From positions 1 through 23,016 of IMG/VR virus record IMGVR_UViG_2531839468_000018: a DNA stretch of 23,016 nucleotides; one strand, 5' to 3'. How positions within the stretch are numbered: the stretch's first letter is position 1; every line of letters begins with the position of its first letter. A program made the translations under genes and the position numbers. This document shows, piece after piece, positions 10,188-17,048 of this stretch. Source of the stretch: a virus (lineage: Duplodnaviria; Heunggongvirae; Uroviricota; Caudoviricetes). The notes below the pieces were generated by a model that did not search any database, was not told the origin of the DNA, and saw nothing but the letters and a program-made list of their open reading frames with translations.

Positions 10188-10404
10188 CCCTTCCCTTATG
10201 GCTAGATTGCGAGAGGTGCTTAACGCGATTTTCAGCGCCCCCCGATCTGGAAAATCCAGAATCCCCAAATATCAGCAAGGAATTTTCTTGCGTAATCAAC
10301 ATCGTTTTTACCTATTAAATCATTACACAGAAAGCCTTTCTGTAATGTCTCTCACTAAACTGTGAACCGCCCCGGGTTTCCTGGAGAGTGTTTTATCTGT
10401 GAAC

Positions 10405-11292
10405 TCAGGCTGCCAGATCATCGTTTCCGATGGAAGCATAATAAGCTTTTTCTGCTTCTGCCGGGGGAGTATGGCCCAGCCTTTCCAGCAATCGTCGATT
10501 GTTATACCAGTCCACCCACGTGAGTGTGGCCAGTTCCACTTCTGCACGGTTTTTCCAGCTCTTACGGTGTATTACCTCCGCTTTGTAAAGACCATTGATG
10601 CTCTCCGCCATCGCGTTGTCATACGAGTCGCCAGTACTCCCTGTTGATGCCAGTAATCCGGCTTCCTTAAGCCGCTGCGTGTAGGCCAGCGATACATACT
10701 GAGAACCTTTATCACTGTGATGGATTGTGCCGGACGGCCGACGGGCCCACAACGCCTGCTCCAGTGCATCCAGCACGAATGTTGTTTCCATGGATGATGA
10801 GACCTGCCATCCCACGATGTATCCGGCGAACACATCAATGATGAACGCCACATAAACGAAGCCCTGCCATGTGCTTACCCAGGTAAAATCAGCCACCCAC
10901 AACTGGTCTGGACGTTCTGCCACGAACTGACGGTTTACGCGGTCGCATGCGGCAACGGCTTTCCGGCTGACGGTAGTGCGGACCTTTTTACCCCGGAGAA
11001 CACCGGCAAGTCCCATAACCGCCATGAGACGTGCCACAGTGCATCTGGCCACTCTGATACCTTCCCGTAACAACTGACGCCAGACTTTACGCACACCGTA
11101 TACCTTGTGATTTTCATCGTATACGCGCTGTATCTCTTTCTTCAGCCAGTCATCGCGCTGCGCACGGGCACTGCGTTTATCCGGATGATGTCGCTGTTGC
11201 TGACAGTGGTAATACGTTGACGGGGCAATATGCAGTTCGCTGCATAGCGGTCCGACCCCGTACTGCTCACGCAGCTTATCCAGCAGCGGCAT
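10405..11292 (-). CDS. IS629-like transposase OrfB
   Basis: [40 protein letters not shown]... with DDE integrase core (..WVADFTWVSTWQGFVYVAFIIDVFAGYIVGW..HSDKGSQYVS..YDNAMAESINGLYKAE..). Confidence 0.85.
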   Translation of the reverse strand: MPLLDKLREQYGVGPLCSELHIAPSTYYHCQQQRHHPDKRSARAQRDDWLKKEIQRVYDENHKVYGVRKVWRQLLREGIRVARCTVARLMAVMGLAGVLRGKKVRTTVSRKAVAACDRVNRQFVAERPDQLWVADFTWVSTWQGFVYVAFIIDVFAGYIVGWQVSSSMETTFVLDALEQALWARRPSGTIHHSDKGSQYVSLAYTQRLKEAGLLASTGSTGDSYDNAMAESINGLYKAEVIHRKSWKNRAEVELATLTWVDWYNNRRLLERLGHTPPAEAEKAYYASIGNDDLAA

Positions 11293-11618
11293 TATTTTTT
11301 CCAGAGGCGGTCGAACTCCGCCTTCGCAAAATAAGCGGAAGCCTGGCGAAGGATATCGTTACTGCGGCGCAGTTCACGATTTTCACGCTCCAGCTCTTTC
11401 AGACGCTGACGTTCAGCGGTGGTGAGCCCTCCATCACCGCCCCCGGTATCCCGCTCATGCTGGCGAACCCAGACACGCAGAGTCTCCGGCGTACAGCCAA
11501 TCTTTGGAGCAATGGAACAAATTGTCGCCCATTGTGAGTCATATTCGCCCTGACTTTCCAGAACCATACGGGCTGCCCGTTGACGGACTTCAGGGGAAAA
11601 ACGAGTATTTTTAGTCAT
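11292..11618 (-). CDS. IS629-like transposase OrfA (HTH / leucine zipper)
   Basis: [61 protein letters not shown]...; ATGA overlap with orfB. Confidence 0.85.
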
Positions 11619-11975
11619 CCTGTTTACCTCTTTCTCAGGGAGTTTAGTCTCCAGGATTCCCGGGGCGGTTCACTTTCACTAAACACGAGAATGATCGGTT
11701 TTATGTCGGATCAGATGCTAGAAACAGCACCACGTCTCACAAGGGCTGTAAGCGATGAAACCAGTGTTTATGCGGGTGCAGGTCAAAATATAGGCCAAAA
11801 TCCATTTAACATAATAATCGTAATATGCACTAAGGAACACATAGAACGCCTTGAATTGATGTATCAGGGGAAAAGTGATGGATTTTTTACGTAGGAGCAC
11901 GAGAGGGCTTCTGTTGACTTTTGTGTGCTATGAAATATAATTAAAGGTTTTTGTTTTTATCGTGTGATGTAGTGG

Positions 11976-12414
11976 ATTACACAGGGGGATAGATTAAATG
12001 GTGTTCTGTTTATACAGGTTTATTTGTTAGATCAACAATTTGGCATTTCTAAACAGATGTTTGAACGTTGCCAAATGTATTGACAACACAAGAAAAGGGC
12101 TTGCTATGCCACGCATTACACGGAATAAGGCTGTAAAAACAAAATAAATTTTAAAATTTGCACAAACGAGAAAACTCGTTCAGAAACAAGCAGAACAATT
12201 TTTAGCCAACAATTTCTGATGGTGCTCTGTAAGCCGCATTACACAAGGCTTTGCGAAAGTGATGTAAAAGTGAAGAAAGTAAGAATTGCACTTTAAGCTA
12301 CTTTTCATTGGATTTTTTAGTATGGAATTACACAGGAATAAGTTAGGGATATTCTATGATTTACACAGGGAATATAGGGGGATTATGGCACACACATAGA
12401 AAGGCATTACACAG
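11976..12414. repeat. Dispersed direct copies of a 9-11-bp motif ATTACAC(A/G)G(G); further copies at 10321, 12996 and inverted copies 12952-13075
   Basis: Copies at 11976, 12115, 12238, 12317, 12359 (ATTTACACAGG) and 12406; three share the extension ACAC(A/G)GGAATA(A/T)(A/G). Confidence 0.6.
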
Positions 12415-12498
12415 AGTGAGTGCTATGTGACAAATGGATGTAACGAGAGGTTACATTCAGCTATCTGAAATGCTCTCTGTAAGAAAGTTGGTAGTAAC

Positions 12499-12607
12499 GG
12501 TAGGTCATAGTGAGCTATGGGGTAGGTCACTGTGAACTAGGGGGGTAGTTCACTATGAGCTAGGGGGTAGGTCATAGTGAGCTAGGGGGTAGGTCACTGT
12601 GAACTAC
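12499..12607. repeat. Five head-to-tail 22-23-bp repeats (GGTAGGTCAYWGTGARCTAGGG), each with an internal dyad; iteron/operator/centromere-like
   Basis: Units at 12499-12520, 12521-12543, 12544-12565, 12566-12587, 12588-12607; immediately followed by a ~70-bp tract that is almost pure A/T (12610-12680). Confidence 0.8.
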
Positions 12608-13694
12608 AATAAGACTATTAATAAAACTATATTAGATTATTAATTAGATCATAATAATAATATTCTTTATATCTATATATATGATCTTTTGCCTTCCGGC
12701 GTTAGCTTCACTCTCTGGCAAGCAGCCTTACTCCGCTACCTTTCGGGCTTCGTGGCTGGCCCGTTCCGCTCACACCGAAAGCAAAGCGTTACTTTCTTCG
12801 TGTAACTATCGTTGGCGGTAACGCCCACGAAGAAATACTATTGCGCTGTGCGCAGAAGAGTAATCACCTAACCAATCATACTGATTGCTTACGTGTTAAC
12901 TCTATCTCTCTACTCTTAATTACCCTCCTACATTTAATAACTCTGTTATTCTCTGTAGTTGTGTAATTACTCGAAGAGAGAGCGGCTAAAGCTCAATTAC
13001 ACTCTGCTTTCCTCGTGTAATTTCACTAAGCCTCAATACAATTCCACTTTCTACATTCTGTAGTCGTGTAATTGTTTTCGGTGGAAAAGCCAGAGGCGAC
13101 ACCGAAAGAGAATTCTGATCTTATTAATCTTATCTATCTTAGTTATCTTACTTACTTTATCCACTTTATTATTAATAATAGCTTTATAAGCTCTGTGTAG
13201 CTCTCTGACGCAAGAAACAGCATTCAGGAAGGGAATCACCTTAGAAAAGTGTTCTTTGCGTCATAATGTGTTTTATGAAGGATTCAGAGGTGTTTCATAA
13301 CAGGAGTGTATAGAGGATACTTTAGGTAATTAAAAATAAGGGGTCTAAATGCTTCTCTAACAGCATTAAGCAGGGTAGGGAATGGAAACGCATTGCCTAC
13401 ATATATAATCTCACTACAGGGCTTTACAGAGCGTTTTATAAAGTGACTCTCTATCTTATATCTACCATTACCTTTTCATATACCTAACAAATACAAAATA
13501 AGCCCCTTAAATAAGCCTCTGGCGAGCTAAACAACCTCTACATAAGAGAATGTATTGCTTTTATCAAAACTTCGTTAGAACGTGTTTTAGAGCGTTTTAG
13601 ACAATAATGAAGAATAGCACTACACAGGAGAGCACGAATTGCTAAGAAAAAATGTAAGTGCATGAAAAAGATCAGATTTTTTATGAAAAGGGTA

Positions 13695-13723
13695 TTGACA
13701 AATGTTTCTTTATATGTAATAAT
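13695..13723 (+). promoter_or_regulatory. Sigma-70-like promoter (TTGACA, 17 bp, TGn-AATAAT) upstream of the early gene train
   Basis: Perfect -35 TTGACA at 13695-13700; extended -10-like TGTAATAAT ending 13723; first gene starts at 13834. Confidence 0.4.
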
Positions 13724-13833
13724 AGGTATTAGAGGGACAGAAAAACATTCTTCTCTAAATAATCAAAATCAATGCACTTTGAAGCCGTCAGGCTTGCAAG
13801 GTGTTTTTCTTTTAACTGAATAAGGAGTTTTTT

Positions 13834-14022
13834 ATGAAATGGTTTACCCCGGAGCACGTCATCTCGGCATTTAAAAAAGGTGAGCTAACACGCCACCAAA
13901 TAGTAATGAATCGTAATATGGCAAGGAGTCGAGGTTATCCAGAGCGAGCAGCTTGCTTCAATGAAGCACTCAAGATTATTGATGAATTAAGAAAAAATGA
14001 AAAAGAATCTGAAACAGAGTAA
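13834..14022 (+). CDS. Small hypothetical protein (62 aa)
   Basis: ATG 6 nt after consensus AAGGAG; first ORF of a co-directional train. Confidence 0.55.
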   Translation: MKWFTPEHVISAFKKGELTRHQIVMNRNMARSRGYPERAACFNEALKIIDELRKNEKESETE

Positions 14023-14041
14023 AGAATAGAAGGAGAAAACT

Positions 14042-14209
14042 ATGAGCGAAACCAAGAAACCAATTCCGCGCACTTACCTACACGTTGACCCTGAAATCTT
14101 CAAGGTTTTATTTGCTGAAGCCAAGAAAAGGCAAATTATGGTCAGTGATTTGATGTTAGAAATCATTACTGAAGCAGCAGAGAACATCAAACAAAAAAAG
14201 GGTAAGTGA
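14042..14209 (+). CDS. Small DNA-binding protein, probable ribbon-helix-helix (Arc/CopG-like) regulator (55 aa)
   Basis: ATG 14042, 6 nt after AAGGAG; MSETKKPIPRTYLHVDPEIFKVLFAEAKKRQIMVSDLMLEIITEAAEN: basic N-terminal strand then two short helices; below the ORF-track cut-off. Confidence 0.5.
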   Translation: MSETKKPIPRTYLHVDPEIFKVLFAEAKKRQIMVSDLMLEIITEAAENIKQKKGK

Positions 14210-14260
14210 TCCTCATTCACTTTAGTAGCGCATTAAGCGTGATTTATAAGGAGATTTTTA

Positions 14261-14950
14261 ATGATTAATCAACTAACTTTTACAAAACACTATGACACGT
14301 TTGATAATGTATCAAAGATTTATTCTGATAAATTCCCTCAAGGAAAAGATTTAGAACTATTACATATTGTGCTTTATTTTCGATTCCTTAGTTATCAGGA
14401 AAACAACCTTAATTGTTATGAAAGTCACGAAACATTAGCTAAGATTTTTAAGTCTTCAGCGTCAACAATTAAACGTAAGATAAACGATCTTAAAGAGATG
14501 GGATTATTAGAAACATCCCCACATCCTGATCCGTATATTTCATCTTTGATTTACAATGCTCTCCCTCTCACAGATGCACATATTACTCCCCCAGGAGAAT
14601 CATCACTCTCTGATCTTTCTGAGGCAGAAGAAGCACAGGAACAACCTAAAGGCCATAAACAGCCTTCTTTTGATGTTCTTGATGATTGGGATGCGCCTTT
14701 GCCGTGGGAGACGGAAGAAACACCTGTTTCATCAAGTGAAAAGGTAGCTAATGATAATGAGGAGGATGTGTTAGAGAATTTTGCCTCTCTTATCTGCCAG
14801 CAGAAACACACCAGAACAGGAGGGGCATCATTTATAGAATTTGCAAATTCACTAGCTTATAGACACGGGCTAAAACGACCAAATGGTATTGAGGCATATT
14901 TTTCTAAGAATTACCCAAATGTGTATGATGACTTTGATATTCCATTTTAA
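14261..14950 (+). CDS. Winged-helix DNA-binding protein, replication-initiator/replisome-organiser-like; acidic C-terminal half ending in an SSB-tail-like DDFDIPF
   Basis: ATG after TAAGGAG; N-terminal ..CYESHETLAKIFKSSASTIKRKINDLKEMGLLE.. is a wHTH signature common in phage O-like initiators; last residues YDDFDIPF* resemble E. coli SSB C-terminus DFDDDIPF. Confidence 0.6.
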   Translation: MINQLTFTKHYDTFDNVSKIYSDKFPQGKDLELLHIVLYFRFLSYQENNLNCYESHETLAKIFKSSASTIKRKINDLKEMGLLETSPHPDPYISSLIYNALPLTDAHITPPGESSLSDLSEAEEAQEQPKGHKQPSFDVLDDWDAPLPWETEETPVSSSEKVANDNEEDVLENFASLICQQKHTRTGGASFIEFANSLAYRHGLKRPNGIEAYFSKNYPNVYDDFDIPF

Positions 14951-14961
14951 TAAGGAGGGTT

Positions 14962-15240
14962 ATGATTCAATATTTAGTAAAAAATCAAGTAGACAGAATT
15001 CAGTGTAATGACACAGGAAAACGCATCTACGAAACACTTGCTTACCTCTATAAAGGAAAGCCAACACCGCTAAAATATAGCGATGTGTTACACCGAGCAG
15101 GGTGCTCTGAAGATGGTTTAAAATTCTGGCTGAAACAGCTATCAAATTTCGGTGTTATAGAGATTAAAGAATTATCTTTCTCTACATTCAATCTCAAAAG
15201 ACTGGATAAAGAAATAGTATTCATCTATTCCACTCTCTAA
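14962..15240 (+). CDS. Hypothetical protein (92 aa), possible small wHTH
   Basis: ATG after AAGGAGGG; ..KYSDVLHRAGCSEDGLKFWLKQLSNFGVIEI.. Confidence 0.5.
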   Translation: MIQYLVKNQVDRIQCNDTGKRIYETLAYLYKGKPTPLKYSDVLHRAGCSEDGLKFWLKQLSNFGVIEIKELSFSTFNLKRLDKEIVFIYSTL

Positions 15241-15372
15241 AATCTCTCTATGTAATTAAAATATAAAAGGAAAACATTATTATGATAGTAGCTATGTATT
15301 GGTTATTGTTCTTTCTCACGTTAGAAACATATTTCGGGGTGTTTTCCTTTAAAAGAAAAGGAAAAGTAAATA

Positions 15373-15780
15373 ATGGCAAAAAGAAAAAACAACGTTGTTA
15401 AGAAAATCGGTGATTCAGCTTCTCTTCTAAGTAAACCTAAATCTATTCTAAGACGTAAAGACTTTAAAGAGCTAGTTACGCTCTCCAAGCAAAATAGCGC
15501 CCCTGGCGAATGGAAAACAGAGATCATAGAACATTCTCCCTCTGTGCCTTGTGGAGATGAATTTAACGCCTTACAAGAAATCTTATCTTCAACACCTGGC
15601 GTATTCTGGAAACCTAGAAAAAGAAAAGAGTATATTGTTGATAGCTCTGATTTACGCAAATACCAGATTTTAGGATTTGAAGACTATAACCACTACGTTG
15701 GTTATCTCGCCACCAATGGCCTAAATAATTTAGTTCCTGAATTCCATTTAGATAATGATGATCACTATGGAGACTTTTAA
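15373..15780 (+). CDS. Hypothetical protein (135 aa), basic N-terminus
   Basis: ORF with ATG start in the co-directional train; MAKRKNNVVKKIGDSASLLSKPKSILRRK... Confidence 0.5.
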   Translation: MAKRKNNVVKKIGDSASLLSKPKSILRRKDFKELVTLSKQNSAPGEWKTEIIEHSPSVPCGDEFNALQEILSSTPGVFWKPRKRKEYIVDSSDLRKYQILGFEDYNHYVGYLATNGLNNLVPEFHLDNDDHYGDF

Positions 15781-15781
15781 T

Positions 15782-16117
15782 ATGAACAAAAACACGTATG
15801 ACACAATTTATTCACTAATTAATTATTATGAGGATGATTACCTCCTGCCTTTAAACCGTGCTGAACTTGAAGCACACAAAAACTCCACGCCAGCGGCACT
15901 AAATGAGGCGTTTAAACACTGGGATTTAGCTGTGAATGCCTTTGAGATGCTCTGTAAGCGTGTAGAGATGCTCTGTAAGCGTGAAAACGCATACCTGACA
16001 GCCGATCAGATATGGGAGCTATCAAACTGGATAGAAGATATTGAATCTGATGTTCGCTATGTGGGAGATGGCCTTATCGAACTCGCTCAACGCTTAGCCG
16101 TTATCACAGAAGAATAA
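15782..16117 (+). CDS. Hypothetical protein (~111 aa) containing an in-frame 21-bp tandem duplication
   Basis: ORF track 15755-16117; preferred start ATG 15782, 8 nt after GGAGA; duplicated EMLCKRV/EMLCKRE from GAGATGCTCTGTAAGCGTG x2 at 15944-15983. Confidence 0.5.
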   Translation: MNKNTYDTIYSLINYYEDDYLLPLNRAELEAHKNSTPAALNEAFKHWDLAVNAFEMLCKRVEMLCKRENAYLTADQIWELSNWIEDIESDVRYVGDGLIELAQRLAVITEE

Positions 16118-16144
16118 AAAAGCAACAAAAAGTTGTAAAATATC

Positions 16145-16173
16145 TTGACATTTCATCTATTGTATGTTAATAT
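16145..16173 (+). promoter_or_regulatory. Strong sigma-70-like promoter (TTGACA, 17 bp, TGn-TAATAT) heading a ~200-nt leader
   Basis: Perfect -35 at 16145-16150, extended -10 TGTTAATAT at 16165-16173; same architecture as the 13695 promoter. Confidence 0.5.
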
Positions 16174-16306
16174 AATTATATAGGGTGATTATTTTTCCTT
16201 TATTGGTTCGATATTAAAAATTCTTCTTGTCGTTAAAGGGGAGTAAAATCTCCGCTCCCCGCTTCTCCTCCTCCTTAAGTGTCATTATTACCTCTTTTTT
16301 CCTTTG

Positions 16307-16334
16307 TTATGCATACATCTTGGAGTATGCATAA
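16307..16334. promoter_or_regulatory. Perfect 9-bp inverted repeat TTATGCATA-N10-TATGCATAA (operator-like)
   Basis: Arms 16307-16315 and 16326-16334, in the leader between promoter and terminator. Confidence 0.4.
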
Positions 16335-16365
16335 CATAGGGTAATTACATAGGTACAAGTTAATA

Positions 16366-16399
16366 AAAGGCGGCTCTAAATGCTGCCTTTTATTTTGCC
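16366..16399 (+). terminator. Intrinsic terminator inside the leader (tR'-like)
   Basis: Stem AAAGGCGGC / GCUGCCUUU (one G-U pair), 7-nt loop, then TTTTATTTT. Confidence 0.6.
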
Positions 16400-16404
16400 C
16401 GTTA

Positions 16405-16422
16405 TACAACTTAAAAGTTGTA
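16405..16422. promoter_or_regulatory. Perfect palindrome TACAACTT-AA-AAGTTGTA (operator-like) just upstream of the late genes
   Basis: 8-bp arms with 2-bp spacer, 37 bp before ATG 16459. Confidence 0.4.
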
Positions 16423-16458
16423 TTTCTTACTTTAAACAAGGTAACAAGGTTTATATAA

Positions 16459-16671
16459 ATGTTGTTCTTAAATGATAAAGAGCAAATCATCAAGTATCGC
16501 GATGAAATGCTAAAGATCAATCCACAAATTACCGAAATGGTAGCTAAATACGCTGGGTGTTCTGTCGAGGAAGTAGAAAGATGTGTTGAAAAATATTTTT
16601 CTCCTTCTTCTCCGTCTACACCTTCCCTTAATGAATTAATCAAATTAAAAGCTAAGGAGATTACTAAATGA
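16459..16671 (+). CDS. Hypothetical protein (70 aa)
   Basis: First ORF after the leader terminator; stop overlaps the next start (ATGA). Confidence 0.5.
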   Translation: MLFLNDKEQIIKYRDEMLKINPQITEMVAKYAGCSVEEVERCVEKYFSPSSPSTPSLNELIKLKAKEITK

Positions 16672-17030
16672 TTATTGATTTAGACACTCTGTTTCCAGTT
16701 CGAAAGACTTTCACAGATATTGTAAGTTATTGTACTGATCCGTTTGCCTCTGTAGAAAACAAGGTTTTTGCTTCTCTTCCTGCTGATGTTGAATGCGGAG
16801 ACTTGATCACCAGCACGGGCGCTAAATATGTATCAGGAGATGATATCTATGTTGTTATGAGTGAATTTTTAACGGCTGGAGCAAACAAGCCTGTAGATGT
16901 TTTACGTAGCAATGCTGGGCTTGTATGCATTAAAGCTGATGCGCTGAATGCTGTAAGTGAAGCAGCAAAAACAGCATTAATTAAAAAAGGCTTCCAGCTT
17001 GAAGGGTTCCATTCTGTTTTCACTTCTTAA
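16668..17030 (+). CDS. Hypothetical protein (120 aa)
   Basis: ATG after TAAGGAG; translationally coupled to the preceding ORF. Confidence 0.55.
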   Translation: MIIDLDTLFPVRKTFTDIVSYCTDPFASVENKVFASLPADVECGDLITSTGAKYVSGDDIYVVMSEFLTAGANKPVDVLRSNAGLVCIKADALNAVSEAAKTALIKKGFQLEGFHSVFTS

Positions 17031-17048
17031 TAAAAGGAATAATAATAA

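What the first reader, a model, noticed from the sequence alone, without database searches (positions are those of the whole stretch)
10321..11684. IS629-like element inserted into the element's repeat-rich control region, beside an imperfect ATTACACAG palindrome and without a perfect target duplication
Seen: the IS is exactly 1310 bp with intact ORFs. Its flanks read CTG and CTT, and both flanks contain TCACTAAAC (10352-10360 and 11676-11684). It separates one ATTACACAG site (10321-10347, part of a 27-bp imperfect palindrome) from the other copies. Inference: the insertion may have uncoupled a regulatory or origin region, possibly immobilising the element or altering its control.
Basis: partly seen in the sequence, partly recalled or inferred. 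Interest (0 to 1): 0.4.

Follow-up and report, generated by a model that had tools for sequence, protein, structure and literature searches.

The report
IS629 insertion in a phage-satellite island
An ordinary, intact IS629-type insertion sequence has recently landed in the gene-poor arm of a 12-kb island that looks like a parasite ("satellite") of phi92-like phages. It sits about 140 bp from the island's copy of the phage genome-end signal, and the repeats beside it belong to the island, not to the insertion.

Summary
The IS spans 10363-11672 (1310 bp). It has 25-nt inverted repeats, intact orfA and orfB, and the IS3-type frameshift pseudoknot. Its flanks read CTG and CTT, TCACTAAAC lies on both sides, and ATTACACAG sites lie on both sides.

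More than 20 IS-free homologues read ...TCACTAAACTTTCACTAAAC.... So the TCACTAAAC pair is a native 11-bp tandem, and the target was CTT. The left copy of the duplication carries one mismatch (T to G). Identical IS copies elsewhere have perfect 3-bp duplications. The IS event itself is ordinary.

The host element (9061-22479) is a 12.1-kb island at thrW, and relatives occur in about 13% of complete E. coli genomes. It has an integrase, an iteron origin with a wHTH initiator-like gene, and diverged copies of the capsid, tape-measure and tail-tube-initiator genes of phi92-like phages. At 10201-10273 it carries a copy of those phages' genome terminus (40/40 nt; the phi92 terminal-repeat end falls at 10220|10221). 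A sister lineage carries the phAPEC8-type version at the same place.

The IS sits 142 bp inside that site, in the island's most conserved gene-free block, and adds 11% to its length. The origin is intact. Loss of mobility is plausible but untested, because about 20% of relatives replace this block with a resolvase gene.

The parts
9035..9080 (+). 3' part of tRNA-Thr (thrW). The attL core repeat ACTCCTATTATCGGCACCAT is at 9061-9080.
   Evidence: Aligns to the 3' end of annotated tRNA-Thr in L001, L004 and L066. A 20-bp exact repeat occurs at 22460-22479. ARAGORN finds no full tRNA in the window.
9686..9844 (+). Conserved 52-aa ORF of the island (WP_000788777 family), function unknown.
   Evidence: Annotated in all relatives. 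No Pfam, PHROG or NCBIfam hit.
10115..10186 (.). 10-bp phased A/T-rich repeats (AAATAGCCAT-type), variable in copy number, immediately left of the terminus mimic.
   Evidence: TRF period 10. One 10-bp unit is missing in L003, L004, L008-L010 and L066.
10201..10273 (.). Copy of the phi92-type phage genome terminus. Box 1 is 10207-10232 (TTGCGAGAGGTGCT|TAACGCGATTTT) and box 2 is 10263-10273 (CCCCAAATATC). The phi92 terminal-repeat end corresponds to 10220|10221.
   Evidence: 44/46 identical, with 40/40 exact, to phi92. The annotated DTR-L is 1-343 and DTR-R ends at the last base of the record, which aligns to 10221. Box 1 is invariant in divergent Stephanstirmvirinae phages and in the islands. 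62 phage records match, all 145-154 kb.
10275..11969 (.). Swappable module that holds the IS: 382 bp without the IS. Its left ~250 bp is the most conserved gene-free stretch of the island.
   Evidence: Replaced by a 179-aa serine recombinase gene in L005, L016, L020, L025, L031, L047, L053 and L060, with divergence starting right after box 2. Pairwise diversity is 0-0.017 in the block against 0.025-0.06 in the flanks.
10288..10362 (+). First 25 codons of a 97-aa ORF (TTG start, AAGGA 6 nt upstream) that the IS cuts. The rest is 11673-11894.
   Evidence: Intact in IS-free copies and annotated in L010 as WP_224171306.1. Homologues occur only within the family. The C-terminal third is not conserved, with a stop, frameshifts and replacements. 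Coding status is unresolved.
10321..10347 (.). 27-bp imperfect palindrome containing the first ATTACACAG.
   Evidence: Read directly. Invariant in 16 haplotypes except one substitution in L017.
10352..10360 (+). First TCACTAAAC of a native tandem pair.
   Evidence: Empty sites read TCACTAAACTTTCACTAAAC.
10360..10362 (.). Left copy of the 3-bp target duplication, reading CTG (expected CTT).
   Evidence: Empty site is AAACTTTCAC. Other identical IS copies have perfect 3-bp duplications.
10363..11672 (-). IS629/IS1203-type IS3-family insertion sequence, 1310 bp. IRR is at 10363-10387 and IRL at 11648-11672. orfA is 11292-11618, orfB is 10405-11292, and the frameshift pseudoknot is 11221-11337.
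11673..11675 (.). Right copy of the target duplication (CTT).
11676..11684 (+). Second TCACTAAAC of the native tandem.
11914..11941 (+). Sigma-70-like promoter (TTGACT-16-TATAAT, 11/12) reading into the ATTACACAG array. A terminator-like hairpin precedes it at 11891-11914.
   Evidence: These are consensus matches only.
11976..12414 (+). Array of six ATTACACAG-type sites, all in the same orientation.
   Evidence: Positions are conserved in relatives and the motif is not enriched in phage muut.
12499..12690 (.). Putative replication origin: 4.9 copies of a 22-bp iteron, then an AT-rich stretch.
   Evidence: A relative with a different wHTH protein has different 22-bp iterons.
14042..14209 (+). 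55-aa ORF, 100% identical to gp095 of phage muut.
   Evidence: 242 nt at 99.6-100% identity to Justusliebigvirus muut and inny.
14261..14950 (+). 229-aa wHTH protein, replication-initiator-like.
   Evidence: PF13730. PHROG replication initiation families, best 5.8e-9. 26-27% identical to muut gp094 at the syntenic position.
17049..18077 (+). Major capsid protein homologue (gpE/HK97 type).
   Evidence: PF03864 at 3.7e-16. 20-25% identical over the full length to myophage capsid proteins, including Justusliebigvirus.
18381..20210 (+). Tape-measure-like protein (609 aa).
   Evidence: phrog_16051 at 2.7e-53. The N-terminal 42 aa are 71% identical and a 226-aa stretch is 32% identical to the Justusliebigvirus tape-measure protein.
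20246..20959 (+). Dit-like / tail-tube-initiator homologue.
   Evidence: PF21821 at 3.4e-29. 61% identical over 205 aa to the phage tail tube initiator protein.
21041..22405 (-). Tyrosine integrase.
   Evidence: PF00589, phrog_1. Annotated in relatives.
22460..22479 (+). attR core repeat.

Best explanation
Shown:
- An intact 1310-bp IS629/IS1203-type IS3-family element transposed into the target CTT of a 12.1-kb island integrated at thrW.
- The left copy of the 3-bp duplication now reads CTG.
- The TCACTAAAC pair, the palindrome and the ATTACACAG array are native island sequence.
- The insertion is private to this genome: it is absent from 5,426 complete E. coli genomes.
- It is recent: an IS-free copy differs by only about 8 positions over 12.1 kb.

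Inferred, with good comparative support:
- The island is a satellite-like parasite of phi92/phAPEC8-like virulent myophages (Stephanstirmvirinae).
- It has an integrase and att sites, an iteron origin with a wHTH initiator-like gene, and phage-like GC content.
- It carries diverged copies of the helper's capsid, tape-measure and tail-tube-initiator genes.
- It carries a 73-bp copy of the helper's genome terminus, which would let the helper terminase cut and package island DNA.

Inferred, weaker:
- The IS lies 142 bp inside that cut site, splits the conserved block next to it, cuts a family-specific 97-aa ORF, and lengthens the island by 11%.
- It is silent while the island sits in the chromosome, but it probably lowers or abolishes helper-mediated packaging or transfer.
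- It does not touch the origin.
For: The IS:
- IS anatomy and identity.
- Empty site in more than 20 IS-free homologues.
- Perfect 3-bp duplications at other identical copies.
- No complete E. coli genome has this junction.
- L066 is 99.87% identical and IS-free.

The island:
- att repeats.
- Island gene content.
- Homology to Justusliebigvirus proteins (tail tube initiator 61%, tape measure 32-71%, capsid about 21%, 55-aa ORF 100%).
- GC is 38.7% against 37.4% for muut.
- The family matches in 733 of 5,426 genomes, at several att sites.

The terminus copy:
- 40/40 nt identity spanning the annotated phi92 DTR end.
- Box 1 and box 2 are invariant across divergent phages while their flanks diverge.
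- A sister island lineage (L011) carries, at the same position and with the same box spacing, a version that matches phAPEC8-type phages near their record ends, with two copies per record.

The block:
- Conservation of the block that was hit.
Against: - No experiment or virion-derived read shows that the island is packaged. None of 29 metagenome contigs ends at the cut site.
- Only one of the two phage terminal-repeat boundaries is copied. No mimic of the phi92 left end and no second box 2 was found.
- About 8 of roughly 45 relatives replace exactly this block (10275-11969) with a resolvase gene and are otherwise complete, so the block is not universally required.
- The block has no RNA-family match and no significant predicted fold.
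- The capsid homology to the proposed helper is weak (about 21%).
- No portal, protease, terminase or known satellite hallmark genes were found.
Confidence: 0.6

Rival explanations
1. The insertion is functionally neutral. The IS landed in a dispensable, swappable cargo module of the island, and the island's mobility and control are unaffected apart from the extra length.
For: The stretch 10275-11969 is replaced by a serine recombinase gene in about one in five relatives that are otherwise complete. Other ISs sit in the same arm in other strains: IS600 in L004 and ISKpn26 in ET82. 62% of IS629 copies in O157 lie in prophage-like DNA (PMC3271280).
Against: Within the lineages that have it, the block is the least variable gene-free stretch, and it is kept even in remnants joined to other DNA. 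It abuts the terminus copy.
Confidence: 0.3
2. The main effect is the knock-out of a small island-specific protein gene: the 97-aa ORF starting at TTG 10288, cut after codon 25.
For: The ORF is open in most IS-free copies, has AAGGA 6 nt upstream of its start, and is annotated by PGAP in some genomes.
Against: There is a premature stop in L022 and L028, 3' frameshifts in L023 and L033, and a replaced 3' end in L071 and L072. Substitutions are 6 synonymous, 10 non-synonymous and 1 stop. There is no homologue outside the family and no domain hit.
Confidence: 0.2
3. The 73-bp phage-like sequence is not a packaging or cut site. It could be a captured phage regulatory sequence (an early promoter or leader in the terminal repeat) or simply a recombination scar.
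For: Only one terminal-repeat boundary is copied. Phages and islands clearly exchange DNA, as the 242 nt identical to muut show.
Against: Box 1 straddles the annotated physical end of phi92 exactly, and it stays invariant where the flanks diverge among phages and islands. A second island lineage has the phAPEC8-type version at the same place. In the island nothing obvious lies downstream of a leftward promoter.
Confidence: 0.12
4. The island is only a decayed prophage remnant, so nothing functional is left for the IS to disturb.
For: PGAP and the older literature treat such regions as cryptic prophages. Many copies carry ISs or truncations, such as the capsid gene cut in L001 and the Dit gene cut in L005.
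Against: The same compact ~12-kb gene order with open reading frames recurs in hundreds of genomes. It occurs at different att sites, with different integrases, with matching iteron and initiator pairs, and with helper-type-specific terminus copies.
Confidence: 0.1
5. The TCACTAAAC copies on both flanks are an IS-generated 9-bp duplication, or the IS is longer than 1310 bp.
For: Both flanks carry the 9-mer. The flanking G and C extend the inverted repeat by one base.
Against: All IS-free homologues already have both copies, 2 bp apart. Identical IS copies elsewhere end at the same bases and have 3-bp duplications.
Confidence: 0.01

Closest known systems
IS629 / IS1203 (IS3 family, IS150/IS51-like group) insertions in prophage-like DNA of E. 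coli and Shigella
   Same: 1310 bp with TG...CA inverted repeats. orfA and orfB are joined by a -1 frameshift with the ALIL pseudoknot, and orfB has an rve DDE domain. It makes a 3-bp target duplication and prefers prophage-like regions.
   Different: This site is not occupied in any complete E. coli RefSeq genome. One base of the duplication differs. The IS is 95% identical to the IS1203-labelled copy compared here; no ISfinder reference was available.
Satellite P4 (helper P2)
   Same: About 12 kb, integrates at a tRNA gene with a tyrosine integrase, has its own replication module, and carries a copy of the helper's packaging site so that the helper terminase packages it.
   Different: None of P4's hallmark genes (Sid, Psu, Delta, Epsilon, alpha primase) is present. 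The mimicked signal is a boundary of a short direct terminal repeat of a virulent 146-150-kb myophage, not a cos site. The island carries its own capsid, tape-measure and tail-initiator homologues.
PLE of Vibrio cholerae (helper ICP1)
   Same: A chromosomal island that exploits a virulent myophage. It is small and integrase-bearing, and relies on the helper for most virion parts.
   Different: There is no sequence or gene-content similarity. PLE remodels the helper's own coat protein rather than encoding a capsid homologue (as cited in PMC12846349).
Capsid-forming PICIs (cf-PICIs)
   Same: A satellite that encodes its own major capsid protein.
   Different: cf-PICIs encode a full head module (portal, protease, adaptors, small terminase) and use only helper tails. 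Here only a capsid homologue is found, together with tail genes (tape measure, Dit), and no portal, protease or terminase.
Concatemer-junction / terminal-repeat packaging signals of DTR phages (T7/T3 type)
   Same: A short conserved sequence at the boundary of a direct terminal repeat, where the genome end is made.
   Different: The cutting mechanism in phi92-like phages has not been worked out, as far as I know. The role of box 1 and box 2 is inferred from position and conservation only.

Membership tests
IS3 family, IS629/IS1203 group | Length about 1.3 kb with terminal inverted repeats ending TG...CA | tested here: met
   1310 bp. The 25-26-nt inverted repeats are 92% complementary.
IS3 family, IS629/IS1203 group | Two overlapping ORFs (HTH orfA, DDE/rve orfB) joined by a programmed -1 frameshift | tested here: met
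   PF01527 in orfA and PF00665 in orfB. ALIL pseudoknot at 119 bits. Identical copies are annotated with a programmed frameshift.
IS3 family, IS629/IS1203 group | 3-4 bp direct target duplication | tested here: inconclusive
   The flanks are CTG and CTT and the empty site is CTT, so 2 of 3 bases match. Identical copies elsewhere give perfect 3-bp duplications. Only 21 of 47 IS629 copies in O157 genomes have perfect duplications (PMC3271280).
IS3 family, IS629/IS1203 group | High nucleotide identity to the IS629 reference sequence | not testable with these tools
   No ISfinder or reference record was available. The IS is 95.0% identical to a PGAP 'IS1203 family' copy, and 4,370 E. coli records match at 95-99%.
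Phage satellite (generic definition) | Integrase and att sites; excisable island | tested here: met
   Integrase at 21041-22405. 20-bp att repeats. Excision itself was not tested.
Phage satellite (generic definition) | Own replication module | tested here: inconclusive
   A wHTH protein matches PHROG replication-initiator families (5.8e-9), with 22-bp iterons and an AT-rich stretch nearby. The iterons differ where the protein differs. No primase or helicase was found.
Phage satellite (generic definition) | Lacks a complete set of virion and lysis genes | tested here: met
   Only capsid, tape-measure and Dit homologues are present. There is no portal, terminase, sheath, tube or lysis gene.
Phage satellite (generic definition) | Carries the helper's packaging signal | tested here: met
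   40/40 nt identity across the phi92 DTR end. The boxes are conserved, and the phAPEC8-type version occurs in a sister lineage. This is a sequence-level test only.
Phage satellite (generic definition) | Helper-dependent induction, packaging and transfer | not testable with these tools
   This needs infection experiments. The metagenome contigs gave no virion-end evidence.
P4-like satellites | Hallmark genes Sid, Psu, Delta, Epsilon, alpha primase-helicase; P2-type cos | tested here: not met
   No such hits in Pfam, PHROGs, NCBIfam or PADLOC.
PICI / cf-PICI | AlpA or Stl regulator, Pri-Rep, small-terminase or redirecting genes; for cf-PICI a full head module (portal, protease, adaptors) | tested here: not met
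   None were detected. A capsid homologue is the only head gene.

The most novel reading that the evidence does not exclude
The host island belongs to an undescribed, widespread family of phage satellites; relatives match in about 13% of complete E. coli genomes. The family parasitises virulent 146-150-kb phi92/phAPEC8-like myophages. It copies one boundary of the helper's direct terminal repeat as its packaging signal, and it carries diverged capsid, tape-measure and tail-tube-initiator genes. Different island lineages are matched to different helper genera. This window would then hold a natural IS629 knock-in 142 bp inside that signal.
Probability: 0.4. Interest if true: 0.75.

Novelty: new member of a known kind. 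Interest (0 to 1): 0.35.

Why it matters
On its own, the IS event is routine. IS629 copies pepper the prophage-like DNA of E. coli and Shigella, and an imperfect duplication is common.

It matters because of where it landed. The comparison it prompted points to a compact island family tied to phi92/phAPEC8-like virulent phages, which are being developed for therapy. If these islands are satellites, they could interfere with such phages and move DNA between strains.

The copied terminus (box 1 and box 2) also gives a concrete candidate for the unknown packaging and cut signal of this phage group. The IS-bearing and IS-free copies differ by about 8 positions and form a ready-made natural pair for testing what the conserved block next to that signal does.

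Tried and rejected
- Rfam search of the window and of an IS-free copy. Only the IS frameshift element, an unrelated IS009 RNA upstream, and the tRNA were found.
- RNA folding of the conserved block on both strands gave z-scores of -1.6 and -1.2, so there is no support for a structured RNA.
- Search of 72,556 plasmids with the block found no match, so there is no link to plasmid oriT, par or res sites.
- The 127-aa ATG ORF across the site is broken by a 1-nt deletion in L008 and L032, and the substitution pattern shows no clear coding signal. The shorter 97-aa version remains unresolved.
- A second cut site: GAGAGGGCTT lies 377 bp from box 1 in block-type islands and would give a terminal repeat of phage-like length. 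It is absent from resolvase-type islands, and no phi92 left-end or inverted box 2 copy exists. I kept this only as weak speculation.
- Metagenome and viral-contig scans for island contigs ending at the cut site found none. Contigs of about 12.5 kb simply break at the att/tRNA repeats.
- By eye I compared the palindrome and repeats with XerCD (dif/cer), DnaA-box, IHF, integrase arm-site and CsrA (GGA) motifs. None fitted, and I ran no computation for these.
- ATTACACAG as a helper-phage motif: not enriched in muut, with 3 hits in 146 kb.
- Outward promoters at the IS ends: none found by the consensus scan.
- Literature searches for satellites of phi92/phAPEC8-type phages found none. The O157 Sakai and EDL933 prophage papers did not let me equate this island with Sp1, Sp2 or CP-933H.
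- Source organism: not identified. The junction is absent from complete E. coli RefSeq genomes.
Full report
**1. The observation**

- An element with ends TGAACCGCCCCGGG.../...CCCGGGGCGGTTCA occupies 10363-11672, which is 1310 bp.
- On the minus strand it has an open 108-aa orfA (PF01527) and a 295-aa orfB (rve, PF00665).
- The Rfam ALIL frameshift pseudoknot scores 119 bits at 11221-11337.
- Copies 100% identical to it occur in several E. coli chromosomes and plasmids, annotated as IS3 family transposase with a programmed frameshift.
- It is 95.0% identical to a copy that PGAP labels IS1203 family. IS1203 is an IS629 isoform, and IS629 subtypes differ by 4-5% (PMC3271280).
- The flanks are CTG and CTT, and TCACTAAAC occurs exactly at 10352-10360 and 11676-11684.
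- Exact ATTACACAG sites lie at 10322, 11976, 12327 and 12406. With one mismatch allowed there are 18 matches against 5.4 +/- 2.2 expected, and 10 of them lie between 9637 and 13627.

**2. IS-free homologues settle the flanks**

The two flanks are contiguous in many genomes.
- KSC64 (L001), 2022E04-002 (L002) and a gut-metagenome contig (L066, 99.87% identical over 12.1 kb) all read ...CTCTCACTAAACTTTCACTAAACACGAG....
- So do all other IS-free relatives aligned.
- The TCACTAAAC pair is therefore a native tandem with an 11-bp period, not a product of the insertion.
- The target was CTT. The right copy is CTT and the left copy reads CTG.
- Three of four identical IS copies checked elsewhere have perfect 3-bp duplications at the same boundaries (GTA, GTT, GTT). 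The boundaries are therefore right, and one base differs here.
- The cause could be a later point mutation or an error in gap repair. I cannot tell which.
- An imperfect duplication is not unusual: only 21 of 47 IS629 copies in four O157 genomes have perfect duplications (PMC3271280).
- Recombination between two IS copies is excluded, because both flanks come from one site.
- None of 5,426 complete E. coli genomes has this junction.
- The window differs from L066 at about 8 positions, so the insertion is private and recent.

**3. What the IS landed in**

The host element runs from a 20-bp repeat at 9061-9080 (the 3' end of tRNA-Thr, thrW) to its copy at 22460-22479. That is 13,419 bp, or 12,106 bp without the IS. 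The DNA upstream in the window (1-9034) is a mosaic of other ISs.

Gene content and arrangement:
- The island has a tyrosine integrase and a 229-aa winged-helix protein that matches phage replication-initiator families.
- It has a gpE/HK97-type capsid protein, a tape-measure-like protein and a Dit-like protein.
- Several small ORFs have no match in any library.
- Between the 52-aa ORF at 9686-9844 and the first gene of the right arm at about 13660, about 3.3 kb (IS-free) has almost no annotated genes in any relative.
- This arm contains 4.9 copies of a 22-bp iteron followed by an AT-rich stretch (12499-12690). A relative with a different winged-helix protein has different 22-bp iterons. This is the likely origin, and it lies 827 bp to the right of the IS, intact.

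Distribution:
- Relatives of the island match in 733 of 5,426 complete E. coli genomes.
- They occur at thrW, at another tRNA gene, within a LysR-family gene and at the thiM riboswitch, with different integrases.

**4. The link to phi92-like phages**

Three independent lines tie the island to Stephanstirmvirinae, virulent myophages of 145-154 kb.

(a) Proteins.
- The Dit-like protein is 61% identical over 205 aa to the tail tube initiator of a Justusliebigvirus.
- The tape-measure-like protein shares 71% identity over its first 42 aa and 32% over 226 aa.
- The capsid protein aligns over its full length at about 21%.
- The genes lie in the same order as in the phage.

(b) DNA.
- 242 nt (14030-14271) are 99.6-100% identical to phages muut and inny. 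This stretch covers a 55-aa gene and the start of the next gene.
- That next gene in the phage encodes a winged-helix protein 26-27% identical to the island's.
- GC content is 38.7% for the island and 37.4% for muut.

(c) The genome terminus.
- Window 10201-10246 matches phi92 at 44 of 46 positions, with 40 of 40 exact at 10207-10246. 62 phage records of this group carry the sequence.
- In the phi92 record the left direct terminal repeat is annotated as 1-343, and the right one ends at the last base, 148612.
- The match runs from inside the repeat across its inner boundary. The last 26 bases of the phi92 record align to 10221-10246. The phage's physical end therefore corresponds to 10220|10221, inside GAGAGGTGCT|TAACGCG.
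- Aligning phi92, Citrobacter phage Tr1 and three uncultivated phage contigs with the islands shows box 1 (TTGCGAGAGGTGCTTAACGCGATTTT) to be invariant.
- A second box (CCCAAATATC), about 31 nt further on, is also conserved, while everything around them diverges.

A sister lineage gives further support.
- L011 lacks the phi92-type sequence.
- At the same position, and with nearly the same box spacing, it has a variant (TTAACGCG...CTCAAATATC).
- That variant matches 65 phAPEC8-type (Phapecoctavirus) records at 81% over about 85 nt. In several of them it lies within about 360 bp of a record end and is present twice per record.
- Helper-type-specific versions of the same site at the same place in the island are what a packaging or cut signal predicts.

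**5. Where exactly the IS sits**

- The insertion point is 142 bp inside the cut-site equivalent and about 90 bp beyond box 2.
- It lies in the least variable gene-free stretch of the island. Mean pairwise difference is 0-0.017 from 10183 to about 11795, against 0.025-0.06 on either side.
- The same stretch is kept almost unchanged in two remnants where the left end of the island is joined to unrelated prophage DNA.
- However, the stretch 10275-11969 is a swappable module. In about 8 of roughly 45 relatives it is replaced, starting right after box 2, by a 179-aa serine recombinase gene, and those islands are otherwise complete. So the block is conserved where present but not universally required.
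- An ORF crosses the site: 97 aa from TTG 10288 with AAGGA upstream, annotated in some genomes. The IS cuts it after codon 25.
- This ORF has no homologue outside the family. Its last third carries a stop, frameshifts or replacements in several copies. Its first two thirds are invariant at the DNA level and so give no information about coding. Its status is open.
- RNA-family and folding tests gave nothing, and there is no plasmid match.

**6. The ATTACACAG array**

- The sites are real and enriched, all in the same orientation, and their positions are conserved among close relatives.
- They are not enriched in the phage.
- Six lie between a strong sigma-70-like promoter (11914-11941) and the iterons.
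- The factor that binds them is unknown.
- The IS raises the distance between the first site, inside the palindrome, and the next from 342 to 1654 bp.

**7. Most likely mechanism**

- Shown: a routine copy-out-paste-in insertion of an IS629-type element into CTT, recent and private to this genome.
- Inferred with good comparative support: the host is a satellite-like island that uses a copy of the helper's terminal-repeat boundary to be cut and packaged by phi92-type terminase. It replicates from its own iteron origin and supplies its own variants of capsid, tape-measure and tail-initiator proteins.
- Inferred, weaker: the IS splits the conserved block next to the signal and adds 11% to a unit that probably has to fit a small capsid. 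This would reduce or abolish transfer while being silent in the integrated state.
- The neutral reading (a dispensable module) is a serious rival.
- The origin is not affected, and I found no promoter reading out of the IS.

**8. Comparison with known systems**

- The IS is a member of the IS3 family, IS629/IS1203 group. All features tested are met, except that the duplication matches at only 2 of 3 bases.
- The island works like P4 in size, tRNA integration and helper packaging-site mimicry. It works like PLE in using a virulent myophage as helper, and like cf-PICIs in encoding its own capsid gene.
- It fails the hallmark-gene tests for all three families.
- Full-text searches found no paper linking satellites to phi92/phAPEC8-type phages. 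That is absence from one library, not proof of novelty.

**9. Verdict**

The finding as stated is an ordinary IS insertion, correctly observed. Its suggestive flanking repeat is explained away by the empty sites.

Noticed in passing
window 9061-22479 (island); 10201-10273 (terminus copy): The host island looks like an undescribed satellite of phi92/phAPEC8-like virulent myophages. It carries a copy of the phage terminal-repeat boundary and diverged capsid, tape-measure and tail-tube-initiator genes, and has phage-like GC content. Relatives match in 733 of 5,426 complete E. coli genomes.
   Followed up: yes
L011 4137-4219 (NZ_AP045771.1): A sister island lineage has, at the same position, a variant of the terminus signal. 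It matches 65 phAPEC8-type phage records near their ends, with two copies per record. This suggests island lineages are matched to different helper genera.
   Followed up: partly
window 14030-14271: 242 nt are 99.6-100% identical to the virulent phages muut and inny. The stretch covers a 55-aa gene plus the start of a winged-helix gene. This indicates very recent DNA exchange between island and phage.
   Followed up: partly
L005 10416-11092; also L016, L020, L025, L031, L047, L053, L060: In about one in five relatives the stretch equivalent to window 10275-11969 is replaced by a 179-aa serine recombinase (resolvase/invertase) gene. The replacement begins right after box 2.
   Followed up: partly
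L073 (Logan contig SRR3132457_1086), last base: A short-read contig of a different island variant ends exactly at ...CACTAAACTT, the insertion point of the window's IS. This may be an independent repeat insertion at the same site (a hot spot) or an assembly coincidence.
   Followed up: no
proteins P0017 and P0014 (Shigella sonnei), equivalent to window ~10293-11684 and ~11782-11980: S. sonnei carries IS-free deletion variants of the same block. One lacks about 84 nt centred on the insertion point, which could be an IS-excision scar. This is speculative.
   Followed up: no
window 10354-10361 and 11641-11648: The target (ACTAAACT) shares an 8-mer with the subterminal part of the IS left inverted repeat (GAGACTAAACTC). 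IS3-family elements are known to favour sequences resembling their ends. The match is short and may be chance.
   Followed up: no
window 11914-11941: A near-consensus sigma-70 promoter (TTGACT-16-TATAAT) sits just after a terminator-like hairpin. It reads into the ATTACACAG array and the iterons, where no ORF follows, so a non-coding transcript is possible.
   Followed up: no
window 10134-10170: The 10-bp AAATAGCCAT repeats next to the terminus copy vary by one unit between otherwise near-identical islands (L066, L003, L008-L010).
   Followed up: partly
window 13328-13349: A 21/22 match (AATTAAAAATAAGGGGTCTAAA) to the gene-free region that precedes the right terminal repeat of phi92. It is marginal (E = 3e-4 in a small local search).
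   Followed up: no
window 1-9034; 3735-3933: The DNA left of the island is a mosaic of other ISs (ISCro1/IS66-type, IS2 and others) and includes an Rfam IS009 RNA match at 214 bits. Only the 3' part of tRNA-Thr is present at 9035-9080, so another element sits between thrW and this island.
   Followed up: partly
L004 10973-12129; L005 20077-21386; L001 19231-20393; H102: Other family members carry other ISs. IS600 and ISKpn26 sit in the same gene-free arm, IS1203 sits in the Dit-like gene with a perfect ATC duplication, and IS3 truncates the capsid gene. The family is a frequent IS target.
   Followed up: partly
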